Assembly (NCBI RefSeq): GCF_002854065.1
Contig: NZ_CP024147.1
Source: Escherichia coli
GTDB taxonomy: Bacteria > Pseudomonadota > Gammaproteobacteria > Enterobacterales > Enterobacteriaceae
Reading direction: 5' to 3' (one strand)
DNA: 64,000 bases
Part shown: piece after piece, positions 20,612 to 28,551 of the stretch
Position numbering within the stretch: position 1 is the first letter of the stretch
How the letters are laid out: each line of letters begins with the position of its first letter
Made by a program: the position numbers and the translations under genes
Notes under the pieces: model-generated
Databases searched by the model: none
Told to the model about the DNA's origin: nothing
What the model saw: only the letters and a program-made list of their open reading frames with translations

Positions 20612-21142
20612 TTAACCTCTTTTACGTCGATAAGCAGATGCGTTTTGTGGTTTTGGCGTATTTTCCTGCAGTGACATCACCACACTCGCGAACTCTTTCA
20701 TTACCCTACGGTAGACATCACGTTTAAATGACACCACCTGTCTGACCGGATACCAGTAACTTACCCATCGCCAGCCGTCAAACTCTGGTGTACTGCTGGT
20801 TTGCATATTGATTTCTGCATCGCCGCTCACCAGCTGCAAGAGAAACCATTTTTGTTTTTGGCCGATACAAACCGGCTTCGTGTCCCAACGCACCAAACGT
20901 TTCGGTAATTTGTAGCGCAACCAGTTACGCGTTGAAGCAAGGATTCGAACGTCTTTGCGGCTTAATCCTACTTCTTCAAACAATTCACGGTACATCGCCT
21001 GCTCTGCGGATTCTCCGGGGTTAATTCCGCCTTGCGGAAATTGCCAGGAGTGCTGACCAAATCGCCGGGCCCACATTACCTGCCCCTGGCGATTACAAAT
21101 CACGATACCTACGTTTGGGCGGTAGCCATCGTCATCAATCAC
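20612..21142 (-). CDS. rppH: RNA pyrophosphohydrolase (Nudix)
   Basis: 176-aa ORF starting [60 protein letters not shown] (Nudix box); 12 nt upstream of ptsP. Confidence 0.95.
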
Positions 21143-21299
21143 CGGACTACCTCAATATAAAGCTTTATATACGAATGATTGTTTCATACTCCAGGAAGAC
21201 GGTAAACCACTCTCTGCAGGGCATTACACACTAATAACAATTGAATAACTCACAGTTATGTGCAGAGTTATAAACAGAGGAAGGGGTGGATAGCCGTTT

Positions 21300-21650
21300 T
21301 TATTCACCTTTTCTGTGGATAGAGTTGTGAAGAACTACGGAATTACTACGGGAAAACCCGGAGCATTCTGAATAAGCCCGATATAGACATTTTAAAATAT
21401 TCATTATCAGTCAATGCATTACATGTAATTTAAGTAATAAAAAAGAGTAATTCGTGACCCAGGTCACACCTCTCATTTACGGGTTGGCGAAAGATCAACC
21501 AATGCGGTATTTATCCACAGAATGTGCCACTAAGTTAAGCACTGAACCACTAAAAACTGGAGTTTCGTCGCACGTCAAGGCTGTAAATGGAAACAGTAGT
21601 GGAGGTTTTTCACAGTTATCCCAGCTTTCTGTGGATAACATAGTGTAAGA
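21300..21650. promoter_or_regulatory. DnaA-box cluster consistent with DARS2 (DnaA-reactivating sequence 2)
   Basis: Perfect TTATCCACA at 21511..21519, perfect TGTGGATAA at 21630..21638, 8/9 match TGTGGATAG at 21314..21322, in the 684-bp rppH–mutH gap where DARS2 is known to lie. Confidence 0.6.
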
Positions 21651-21826
21651 TCCTGTTTATTTTCAGTGACCAGATTTGGAAAACCCGTTGCAGTGTTGCG
21701 CAACTCGATTACCGGCAACCTAAAAAGCAATATAAATCAGAGAATTGAACAACGCATGTGGAAAAAGTTACACTGCGAATATTCGGCACATAATTGCTGT
21801 TTGTTTTTTAACCAAGGTATCATGAC

Positions 21827-22516
21827 ATGTCCCAACCTCGCCCACTGCTCTCTCCTCCCGAAACTGAAGAACAGTTGTTAGCGCAAGCACAGCAACTTTC
21901 TGGTTATACATTGGGAGAACTGGCGGCACTTGCCGGGCTGGTTACGCCAGAGAATTTAAAACGCGATAAGGGCTGGATTGGCGTGTTACTGGAGATCTGG
22001 CTAGGTGCCAGCGCAGGGAGTAAACCTGAGCAAGATTTTGCTGCTCTGGGCGTGGAACTTAAAACTATCCCTGTGGATAGTCTTGGTCGTCCGCTGGAAA
22101 CAACATTCGTTTGTGTTGCCCCGTTAACGGGCAATAGCGGGGTGACCTGGGAAACCAGCCACGTGCGCCACAAACTCAAACGCGTACTGTGGATACCGGT
22201 TGAAGGCGAGCGCAGCATCCCGCTGGCGCAGCGTCGCGTTGGATCACCGTTGCTGTGGAGCCCGAATGAAGAGGAAGACCGGCAGCTACGCGAAGACTGG
22301 GAAGAATTAATGGATATGATTGTTCTCGGTCAGGTTGAGCGGATTACCGCTCGTCACGGGGAGTATTTACAGATACGACCGAAAGCAGCGAATGCGAAAG
22401 CGCTTACCGAAGCCATTGGTGCCCGGGGCGAACGGATTCTGACGCTGCCGCGCGGCTTTTATTTGAAGAAAAATTTCACCAGTGCGCTGCTGGCCCGTCA
22501 TTTTCTGATCCAGTAG
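21827..22516 (+). CDS. mutH: DNA mismatch repair endonuclease MutH
   Basis: 229-aa ORF starting [37 protein letters not shown]. Confidence 0.95.
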
Positions 22517-28266: not shown

Positions 28267-28354
28267 AAAAAAAACCTGCGCATCCGCGCAGGTTGGTGCA
28301 AGAGACAGGGTACGAAGAGCGTACCGAATAATCTCACCAATCAATACCTCTGGG
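28267..28354 (-). ncRNA. omrA: OmrA small regulatory RNA
   Basis: Minus strand reads CCCAGAGGTATTGATTGGTGAGATTATTCGGTACGCTCTTCGTACCCTGTCTCTTGCACCAACCTGCGCGGATGCGCAGG followed by a U-run; GC-rich terminator hairpin; aas–galR intergenic location. Confidence 0.85.
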
Positions 28355-28469: not shown

Positions 28470-28551
28470 AAAAAAAACCTGCGCATCTGCGCAGGCTGGT
28501 GTAATTCATGTGCTCAACCCGAAGTTGACTTCACCTATCAATACCTCTGGG
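28470..28551 (-). ncRNA. omrB: OmrB small regulatory RNA
   Basis: Minus strand reads CCCAGAGGTATTGATAGGTGAAGTCAACTTCGGGTTGAGCACATGAATTACACCAGCCTGCGCAGATGCGCAGG followed by a U-run; shares 5' and 3' ends with OmrA. Confidence 0.85.

What the first reader, a model, noticed from the sequence alone, without database searches (positions are those of the whole stretch)
21300..21650. Cluster of consensus DnaA boxes in the rppH–mutH gap (DARS2)
Two perfect and one 8/9 DnaA boxes lie within about 330 bp of non-coding DNA, matching the known DARS2 element that reactivates DnaA-ADP. The two 64- and 71-aa ORFs the track calls here are therefore probably not protein-coding.
Basis: partly seen in the sequence, partly recalled or inferred. 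Interest (0 to 1): 0.3.

Follow-up and report, generated by a model that had tools for sequence, protein, structure and literature searches.

The report
DARS2, the known DnaA-reactivating site
The DnaA-box cluster between rppH and mutH is the well-studied E. coli element DARS2, which recharges the replication initiator DnaA with ATP, so the finding is correct but already known, and the small reading frames lying on it do not look like genes.

Summary
Confirmed, and already known. The window is E. coli: the 684-bp rppH–mutH spacer (21143-21826) is 99.1% identical to K-12 and is found in 5424 of 5426 complete genomes.

Published primers and oligonucleotides place every named DARS2 part on the window:
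- core boxes I-III: 21300-21334
- box IV: 21367-21375
- IHF sites IBS1-2: 21393-21421
- the essential 21-mer holding Fis sites FBS2-3: 21490-21510
- box V: 21511-21519
- box VI: 21630-21638

They are box II (8/9), box V and box VI (both 9/9). Only box II lies in the essential core. Boxes V and VI were dispensable for activation on plasmids, and box V is the published ATP-DnaA negative-feedback site.

Box order and spacing are kept from Escherichia to Vibrio.

The 64-aa ORF, the 71-aa ORF and RefSeq's ygdT show no codon periodicity and are broken or truncated in related genera, so they are probably not coding.

Side observations:
- A CRP box already recorded by genomic SELEX sits inside DARS2.
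- The "dispensable" right half is the best-conserved part of the spacer in the enteric species compared.
- DARS-core-like triple boxes are common upstream of priA in other proteobacteria.

The parts
21277..21731 (.). Full-length DARS2 (the 455-bp fragment of the literature)
   Evidence: The left end is fixed by primer MutH-4 (GAGGAAGGGGTGGATAGCC, which starts at 21277). The right end is inferred from the stated 455 bp; the right primer's sequence was not recovered.
21277..21509 (.). Minimal active DARS2 (the published 'DeltaRight' construct)
   Evidence: [quoted passage not shown] Kasho 2014 found this fragment sufficient to stimulate initiation.
21300..21334 (.). DARS2 core. Box I TTATTCACC (21300-21308, plus), 5-bp spacer, box II CTATCCACA (21314-21322, minus), 3-bp spacer, box III TTCTTCACA (21326-21334, minus)
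   Evidence: This is exactly the segment removed by the published core deletion (primers MutH-14/MutH-15; MutH-9/-10). It is identical to K-12. It is nearly invariant in 9 Enterobacterales and 4 Vibrionaceae species.
21367..21375 (-). DnaA box IV (TTATTCAGA, 8/9)
   Evidence: Flanked by the box-IV substitution primers Ksh-30/Ksh-31; found in the scan.
21393..21421 (.). IHF sites IBS1 (21393-21405, plus, TAAAATATTCATT) and IBS2 (21409-21421, minus, TAATGCATTGACT), 3 bp apart
   Evidence: Each has one mismatch to TAAnnnnTTGATW. The 3-bp separation matches Kasho 2014. Substitution primers Ksh-16/Ksh-19 flank 21398-21414. The PciI site ACATGT at 21422-21427 lies beside the IBS, as stated in the 2025 paper.
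21445..21459 (.). Fis site FBS1 (GAGTAATTCGTGACC), non-essential
   Evidence: Perfect match to GnnYAnnnnnTRnnC. Oligonucleotide FIS-1U maps here.
21453..21468 (.). CRP-type palindrome cGTGA-CCCAGG-TCACA, overlapping FBS1
   Evidence: 9 of 10 half-site bases match. The identical box, TGTGACCTGGGTCACG, is listed for 'rppH-ptsP< <ygdT' in the CRP genomic SELEX supplement of Shimada 2011. Where the box is kept, the half-sites sit at the same offset (+153 from the core) while the 6-bp spacer varies. It is kept in 6 Escherichia/Citrobacter/Enterobacter species and absent in 7 other species.
21490..21510 (.). Essential 21-mer containing Fis sites FBS2-3
   Evidence: This is exactly the segment removed by the Delta21 primers MutH-24/MutH-25. 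Kasho 2014 found it essential. The window differs from K-12 by C to G at 21506, which is an 'n' position of the Fis consensus. The AAAGATC block lies exactly 21 bp before box V in 11 of 13 species.
21511..21519 (+). DnaA box V (TTATCCACA, perfect)
   Evidence: Flanked by primers Ksh-32/Ksh-33. It lies in the 52-mer FBS2-5 oligonucleotide (21481-21532), which matches the window at 51 of 52 bases. Miyoshi 2021 describes it as the ATP-DnaA nucleation site for negative feedback. It is invariant in 12 of 13 species.
21573..21600 (.). Conserved block CGTCAAGGCTGTAAAT.GAAACAGTAGT, function unknown
   Evidence: Nearly invariant from Escherichia to Yersinia and Acerihabitans. Not found in Vibrio. I found no name for it in the DARS2 papers read.
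21616..21650 (.). Core-like module TTATCCCAG – CTTTC – TGTGGATAA (box VI) – CAT – (G/A)GTGTAAGA
   Evidence: It has the same layout as the core: box (plus), 5 bp, box (minus), 3 bp, box (minus). 23 of 35 bases are identical by my count. The 12-mer TTTCTGTGGATA is repeated exactly at 21310-21321 and 21626-21637. There is also an inverted repeat GTTATCC/GGATAAC. The two outer 'boxes' are poor matches (6/9 and 7/9).
21630..21638 (-). DnaA box VI (TTATCCACA, perfect)
   Evidence: Flanked by primers Ksh-34/Ksh-35. Invariant in all 13 species aligned; the 118-120 bp box V-to-VI spacing was measured in the 12 that keep a perfect box V.
21642..21662 (.). Conserved block GGTGTAAGATCCTGTT(C/T)ATT, function unknown
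   Evidence: Invariant in the other 8 Enterobacterales apart from the C/T position shown; the window itself has A for G at 21642.
21687..21701 (.). Fis site FBS6 (GTTGCAGTGTTGCGC), non-essential
   Evidence: This is the segment between substitution primers Ksh-10 and Ksh-9.
21495..21641 (-). ygdT, a 48-aa ORF annotated in RefSeq; probably not coding
   Evidence: Annotated as 'protein YgdT'. Codons 2-4 are box VI, the residues VDK are box V, and the stop codon lies in the 21-mer (read). Variable sites by codon position are 16/17/10, against 57/33/187 for mutH. The frame is broken or truncated in 6 of the 8 other species compared. No NCBIfam family matches.
21454..21648 (+). 64-aa ORF (GTG start); probably not coding
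   Evidence: Variable sites by codon position are 26/23/19. It ends 19 codons earlier in Citrobacter and E. cloacae and has no counterpart in Yersinia. No family matches.
21666..21881 (+). 71-aa ORF (GTG start), running out of frame into mutH; probably not coding
   Evidence: Variable sites by codon position are 36/34/31. It is cut to 41 aa in E. albertii and interrupted by stops in Citrobacter. It overlaps the first 55 nt of mutH in another frame.
21767..21794 (+). Promoter-like site GTTACA-16-CATAAT, a candidate mutH promoter, with box TTTTCCACA (21757-21765, minus) just upstream
   Evidence: Consensus scan only; not verified.

Best explanation
This is DARS2, the second chromosomal DnaA-reactivating sequence of E. 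coli.

How it works, taken from the published work rather than tested here. Three ADP-DnaA molecules bind core boxes I-III (21300-21334). Boxes I and II face each other across 5 bp, so the two bound AAA+ domains meet head to head and release ADP. Box III supports them head to tail. The freed apo-DnaA binds ATP and becomes initiation-competent.

At DARS2 the core is weak on its own. It is switched on when IHF bends the DNA at IBS1-2 (21393-21421) and Fis binds FBS2-3 in the 21-mer (21490-21510), which brings Fis onto the core-bound DnaA dimer. When ATP-DnaA is high it nucleates on the perfect box V (21511-21519), spreads over weak neighbouring boxes, displaces Fis and shuts the site off.

Box VI and the conserved right half have no assigned role. 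The ORFs lying on the element, including ygdT, are most likely by-products of conserved non-coding blocks that happen to lack stop codons.
For: Shown here:
- The gap is the K-12 rppH–mutH spacer at 99.1% identity, between the same genes.
- Each published construct boundary maps to the base: core deletion 21300-21334, Delta21 21490-21510, substitutions of boxes IV/V/VI, IBS1-2, FBS1 and FBS6.
- The box I–5 bp–box II–3 bp–box III layout is present.
- IBS1 and IBS2 are 3 bp apart with the PciI site beside them.
- Spacing is conserved. Core to box V is 210-212 bp in Enterobacterales and 217-219 bp in Vibrio. Box V to VI is 118-120 bp in all. AAAGATC to box V is 21 bp.
- The ORFs carry a non-coding signature.

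From the literature:
- ADP-release mechanism and head-to-head dimer: PMC6868365.
- IHF/Fis activation and the minimal region: PMC4245941.
- Box V negative feedback: PMC8682772.
- Supercoiling and Fis-DnaA contact: PMC11724364.
- Conservation in 59 E. coli genomes and fitness effects: PMC4585315.
Against: Nothing contradicts the identification.

Caveats:
- Activity was not and cannot be measured here.
- This strain carries a C-to-G change at 21506 inside the essential 21-mer. It falls on an unspecified position of the Fis consensus, and Frimodt-Moller 2015 reports natural FBS-3 variants in 9 of 59 strains.
- The right end of the 455-bp fragment is inferred from its length.
- The strong conservation of the right half is not explained by the published model, which calls that half dispensable.
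Confidence: 0.97

Rival explanations
1. The boxes are mainly transcriptional operators: DnaA bound at V, VI and the box at 21757-21765 regulates the mutH and/or rppH-ptsP promoters, and DnaA reactivation is secondary.
For: Hansen and Atlung 2018 describe DARS2 as lying 'in the mutH promoter', and say the fragment was first fished out as a high-affinity DnaA binder. A promoter-like site (21767-21794) has a TTTTCCACA box directly upstream. Boxes V and VI are deeply conserved although dispensable for activation on plasmids.
Against: The core layout, the IHF and Fis sites and their spacing match DARS2 base for base. Published deletions of the core lower cellular ATP-DnaA. The 21757 box is not conserved in Enterobacter, Yersinia or Acerihabitans. 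The two roles are not mutually exclusive.
Confidence: 0.15
2. ygdT (21495-21641, minus strand) is a real small-protein gene, and part of the conservation of the right half reflects its coding sequence.
For: RefSeq annotates it in all sampled E. coli genomes. A 48-aa frame is open in E. albertii and in Citrobacter sp. FP75. An AGGA motif lies about 10 nt before the ATG (read).
Against: There is no third-position excess: 16/17/10 variable sites, against 57/33/187 for mutH and 22/9/104 for rppH. The conserved 'residues' coincide with box VI, box V and blocks that are invariant at all three codon positions. The frame has a stop after 11 codons in E. cloacae. It has no ATG and a frameshift in Yersinia. 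It is truncated in C. werkmanii, Enterobacter Bisph1 and Acerihabitans. The block holding the AGGA is still invariant in Yersinia, where the ATG is gone. No NCBIfam family matches. The microbiology hits for 'YgdT' that I opened were misprints for YdgT; other hits were unrelated uses of the string.
Confidence: 0.07
3. The conserved right half (about 21563-21682) encodes a small RNA or a structured mutH leader.
For: It is the longest nearly invariant stretch of the spacer among the Escherichia, Citrobacter and Enterobacter species compared. It contains an inverted repeat GTTATCC/GGATAAC.
Against: Rfam gives no match even at E-value 1, apart from a chance miRNA hit. Folding z-scores are only -1.76 and -1.29. 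The alignment fold has a positive covariation term and 1 compensatory pair out of 38. No flanking promoter or terminator pair was predicted.
Confidence: 0.05
4. The cluster is a chance accumulation of DnaA-box-like words in AT-rich intergenic DNA.
For: The relaxed consensus is not enriched over the window as a whole: 9 matches against 6.6 expected.
Against: The only two perfect TTATCCACA sites in 64 kb lie 119 bp apart here. Only 1 of 300 simulations reaches the cluster score. Boxes and spacing are conserved across two bacterial orders.
Confidence: 0.01

Closest known systems
DARS2 of E. coli K-12 (Fujimitsu 2009; Kasho 2014; Miyoshi 2021; Kasho 2025)
   Same: Same locus, same flanking genes. 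The core, box IV, IBS1-2, FBS1, boxes V and VI and FBS6 are all identical to K-12.
   Different: Six single-base differences in the 684-bp spacer, at 21156, 21432, 21439, 21506, 21642 and 21812. 21506 lies inside the essential 21-mer at a non-consensus position. 21439 lies in the FIS-1U oligonucleotide but outside the 15-mer Fis site. 21642 lies in the conserved block after box VI.
DARS1 (bioD–uvrB spacer)
   Same: Same core layout: box I and box II head to head across 5 bp, then box III 3 bp further. DARS1-type cores next to uvrB were recovered by the same search pattern in 14 species.
   Different: DARS1 needs no IHF or Fis. Its box II is a perfect consensus, whereas DARS2 box II has one mismatch. 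It lies outside this window.
datA (DnaA-inactivating locus)
   Same: A non-coding cluster of DnaA boxes with an IHF site that tunes the nucleotide state of DnaA.
   Different: datA promotes ATP hydrolysis on ATP-DnaA oligomers built on head-to-tail boxes. Here the defining head-to-head I–II pair and the Fis sites mark a DARS element.

Membership tests
DARS2 | Core of three DnaA boxes: I and II head to head with a 5-bp spacer, III head to tail with II | tested here: met
   TTATTCACC (plus) – TTTTC – TGTGGATAG – AGT – TGTGAAGAA at 21300-21334. Identical to K-12 and exactly the published core deletion.
DARS2 | Two IHF consensus 13-mers (IBS1-2), 3 bp apart, between the core and the Fis sites | tested here: met
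   21393-21405 and 21409-21421, one mismatch each. The published substitution primers and the PciI site map here.
DARS2 | Essential 21-mer carrying Fis sites FBS2-3 | tested here: met
   21490-21510 equals the Delta21 deletion. There is one natural C-to-G change at 21506, at an unspecified consensus position.
DARS2 | Perfect DnaA box V immediately after the 21-mer, inside the FBS2-5 fragment | tested here: met
   TTATCCACA at 21511-21519. The 52-mer FBS2-5 oligonucleotide matches at 51 of 52 bases.
DARS2 | Chromosomal position between rppH (ygdP) and mutH | tested here: met
   The gene order ptsP–rppH–[DARS2]–mutH–ygdQ in the window matches the RefSeq annotation of K-12 EMG2. The same order is found in Enterobacterales and Vibrionaceae.
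DARS2 | IHF- and Fis-dependent release of ADP from DnaA, and an effect on initiation timing | not testable with these tools
   Biochemical and genetic property. Inferred from near-identity to the K-12 element, for which it was shown.
Small-protein gene (ygdT, 64-aa ORF, 71-aa ORF) | Excess of substitutions at third codon positions across species | tested here: not met
   Variable sites by codon position are 16/17/10, 26/23/19 and 36/34/31. The controls are mutH 57/33/187 and rppH 22/9/104.
Small-protein gene (ygdT, 64-aa ORF, 71-aa ORF) | Open frame of similar length kept in related genera | tested here: not met
   ygdT is intact only in Escherichia and one Citrobacter. It is broken or truncated in 6 of the 8 other species. 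The 64- and 71-aa frames end at different places or are interrupted.
Small RNA | Conserved secondary structure with compensatory changes, or a match to an Rfam family | tested here: not met

The most novel reading that the evidence does not exclude
DARS2 may carry regulatory inputs beyond IHF, Fis and DnaA.

First, a cAMP-CRP site (21453-21468) sits between the IHF and Fis sites. It is recorded by genomic SELEX and kept at a fixed offset in Escherichia, Citrobacter and Enterobacter. It could tie DnaA reactivation to carbon supply, either by bending the IHF–Fis loop, by competing with Fis at FBS1, or by driving transcription through the IHF sites and the core. The published subFBS1 mutant also destroys one CRP half-site, so its slight over-initiation phenotype could be a CRP effect.

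Second, the deeply conserved right half, with its core-like box VI module, could be a second DnaA-handling module that plasmid assays missed.
Probability: 0.15. Interest if true: 0.5.

Novelty: already known. Interest (0 to 1): 0.1.

Why it matters
DARS2 is a central part of how E. coli times chromosome replication, but it has been dissected base by base since 2009, so finding it again adds nothing new.

The useful outcomes are practical:
- The window can be annotated with exact coordinates for every DARS2 part.
- The ygdT annotation and the two ORF calls can be flagged as probable artefacts of a conserved non-coding element.
- Three loose ends are recorded for specialists: the CRP box inside DARS2, the unexplained conservation of the right half, and the recurrence of DARS-type cores upstream of priA and other DNA-metabolism genes in other proteobacteria.

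Tried and rejected
- Small RNA in the right half: no Rfam hit, weak folding z-scores, no covariation. Rejected.
- Protein coding for ygdT and the 64-aa, 71-aa and 51-aa ORFs: no family match, no codon periodicity, frames not conserved. Rejected as unlikely.
- Literature on YgdT: the microbiology hits I opened were misprints for the H-NS partner YdgT; other hits were unrelated uses of the string.
- LexA box in CCTGTTTATTTTCAGTG: checked by eye. The half-site spacing is 8, not 10. Rejected.
- Promoter assignment for the conserved blocks: I could not find a convincing -35/-10 pair by eye or with the scan. Left open.
- The founding paper, Fujimitsu 2009, could not be read. What it says about DARS candidates in other species is known to me only through a citation.
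- Supplement of the 2025 paper: not held.
- The literature search linking DARS2 with CRP found nothing relevant to replication.

Full report
**What is there.** The window is Escherichia coli. The 684 bp between rppH (20612-21142, minus strand) and mutH (21827-22516, plus strand) are found in 5424 of 5426 complete E. coli genomes at 95-100% identity. They differ from K-12 strain EMG2 at six single bases.

- CTATCCACA (8/9) at 21314-21322, minus strand
- TTATCCACA (9/9) at 21511-21519, plus strand
- TTATCCACA (9/9) at 21630-21638, minus strand

The two perfect boxes are the only perfect ones in 64 kb. A cluster this dense arose in 1 of 300 simulated windows.

**Mapping onto published DARS2.** I mapped the element base by base using primer and oligonucleotide sequences. 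These came from the supplements of Kasho et al. 2014 (PMC4245941) and Miyoshi et al. 2021 (PMC8682772), and from the methods of Frimodt-Moller et al. 2015 (PMC4585315).
- The left primer of the 455-bp DARS2 fragment starts at 21277.
- The published core deletion removes exactly 21300-21334. That segment reads TTATTCACC (box I, plus), TTTTC, TGTGGATAG (box II, minus), AGT, TGTGAAGAA (box III, minus).
- Box IV is 21367-21375.
- The two IHF 13-mers are 21393-21405 and 21409-21421. They are 3 bp apart, as published, with the PciI site beside them.
- FBS1 is 21445-21459.
- The essential 21-mer with FBS2-3 is 21490-21510.
- Box V is 21511-21519, box VI is 21630-21638 and FBS6 is 21687-21701.
- The minimal active fragment ends at 21509.

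**Mechanism (from the literature, not tested here).** ADP-DnaA bound to boxes I and II meets head to head and releases ADP, and box III stabilises the complex (PMC6868365). IHF at IBS1-2 and Fis at FBS2-3 are both required (PMC4245941). Negative supercoiling stabilises IHF and lets Fis contact DnaA (PMC11724364). ATP-DnaA nucleating on box V displaces Fis and closes a negative feedback loop (PMC8682772). Boxes IV-VI and the right half were dispensable for stimulating initiation from a plasmid.

**Conservation.** I scanned one genome per species with a degenerate core pattern and sorted the hits by neighbouring genes. Twenty sampled species, all Enterobacterales or Vibrionaceae, have the core next to rppH and/or mutH.

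In 13 aligned spacers the spacing is held tightly:
- core to box V: 210-212 bp in Enterobacterales, 217-219 bp in Vibrio
- box V to box VI: 118-120 bp in all that have a perfect box V
- the AAAGATC block of the 21-mer: exactly 21 bp before box V in 11 of 13

**The ORFs.** Three ORFs lie on the element: the 64-aa ORF (21454-21648, plus), the 71-aa ORF (21666-21881, plus, running out of frame into mutH) and RefSeq's ygdT (21495-21641, minus).

Variable alignment columns by codon position among Escherichia, Citrobacter and Enterobacter:

| ORF or gene | position 1 | position 2 | position 3 |
|---|---|---|---|
| 64-aa ORF | 26 | 23 | 19 |
| 71-aa ORF | 36 | 34 | 31 |
| ygdT | 16 | 17 | 10 |
| mutH (control) | 57 | 33 | 187 |
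| rppH (control) | 22 | 9 | 104 |

Other points on ygdT:
- Its codons 2-4 are box VI, its VDK residues are box V and its stop codon lies in the 21-mer.
- Its frame is stopped after 11 codons in E. cloacae.
- It lacks the ATG and is frameshifted in Yersinia.
- It is truncated in three further species.

No protein family matches any of the ORFs. I found no real literature on YgdT.

**Loose ends.**

(a) A CRP-type palindrome, cGTGA-N6-TCACA, lies at 21453-21468 and overlaps FBS1. The same 16-mer is listed as a CRP genomic SELEX site for rppH-ptsP in Shimada et al. 2011 (PMC3105977). Where the box is kept, its half-sites sit at the same offset while its spacer varies. It is kept in six Escherichia/Citrobacter/Enterobacter species. 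It is absent in Enterobacter sp. BIGb0383, Yersinia, Acerihabitans and Vibrio. I found no paper connecting it with DARS2. The published subFBS1 substitution also destroys one CRP half-site.

(b) The "dispensable" right half (about 21563-21682) is the best-conserved part of the spacer among the enteric species compared. It contains two unnamed invariant blocks. It also contains a module around box VI with the same box–5–box–3–box layout as the core. RNA explanations found no support.

(c) The core pattern has 19 specified bases. By my own calculation it should occur about twice by chance in the whole collection, yet the scan hit its 120-locus limit. Eighty-two hits lie outside the mutH and uvrB contexts. 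They come from Pseudomonas, Xanthomonas, Legionella (up to five copies on one contig), Nitrosomonas and other beta- and gamma-proteobacteria. Sixteen of them, plus Xanthomonas cucurbitae identified separately, lie just upstream of priA, always with the gene's 5' end facing the box I side. Sugiyama et al. [quoted passage not shown] This is therefore at least partly known, but I could not read that paper.

**Verdict.** The element is already known and thoroughly characterised, so interest is low.

Noticed in passing
window 21453-21468: A CRP-type palindrome cGTGACCCAGGTCACA lies inside DARS2, overlapping Fis site FBS1 and sitting between the IHF sites and the essential Fis 21-mer. The identical box is listed as a CRP genomic SELEX hit for rppH-ptsP in Shimada 2011. 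Where the box is kept (6 species), the half-sites sit at the same offset while the spacer varies; it is absent in 7 others. No DARS2 paper in the library mentions it. The published subFBS1 mutant also destroys one of its half-sites.
   Followed up: partly
window 21563-21682: The right half of DARS2, reported as dispensable on plasmids, is the most conserved stretch of the whole rppH–mutH spacer in the enteric species compared. It includes the unnamed blocks CGTCAAGGCTGTAAAT.GAAACAGTAGT and GGTGTAAGATCCTGTTYATT. I found no support for an RNA or a coding explanation.
   Followed up: partly
window 21616-21650, compared with 21300-21334: The sequence around box VI (TTATCCCAG-CTTTC-TGTGGATAA-CAT-GTGTAAGA) copies the box–5 bp–box–3 bp–box layout of the core. 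It shares an exact 12-mer, TTTCTGTGGATA, with the core. The outer two 'boxes' are weak, so this may be a relic or a low-affinity module.
   Followed up: partly
loci L002-L121, for example L103:9057-9088, L030:2210-2241, L011:6306-6337, L049:4826-4857, L020-L023: DARS-core-like triple boxes (TTATCCACA-N5-TGTGGATAA-N3-TGTGNA) are widespread in gamma- and beta-proteobacteria that lack the mutH context. In 16 loci, plus Xanthomonas cucurbitae (L030), they lie just upstream of priA in a fixed orientation. In 6 loci they lie between xseA and exbB. In Legionella rowbothamii one lies beside an HhH-GPD glycosylase gene, and that genome has five copies. The neighbours are often DNA-repair or replication genes, as with uvrB (DARS1) and mutH (DARS2).
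   Followed up: partly
window 21506 and 21642: This strain differs from K-12 by C to G inside the essential 21-mer, at a non-consensus position of the Fis site. It also differs by G to A at the first base of the block after box VI, which is otherwise invariant in the 8 other Enterobacterales.
   Followed up: no
window 21757-21794: A further consensus-type DnaA box (TTTTCCACA, minus strand) sits directly upstream of the only promoter-like site in the spacer (GTTACA-16-CATAAT), about 30 bp before the mutH start codon. DnaA control of mutH is possible. The box is conserved only in Escherichia and Citrobacter.
   Followed up: no
window 28267-28354, 28470-28551 and 46443-46513: Rfam finds the two OmrA/OmrB small RNAs (minus strand) and one tRNA gene (minus strand) elsewhere in the window, as expected for this part of the E. 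coli chromosome.
   Followed up: no
window 37833-37848, 54331-54346 and 63947-63962: Other CRP-type palindromes occur in the window: 6 with at most one mismatch, against 1.8 expected. At least three of them (AGTGATTTTTATCACA, TGTGATCAACCCCACA, TGTGAGTTCATTCACA) appear in the same SELEX table as sites near kduI/yqeF, ygeV/ygeW and ygfJ/ygfK.
   Followed up: no
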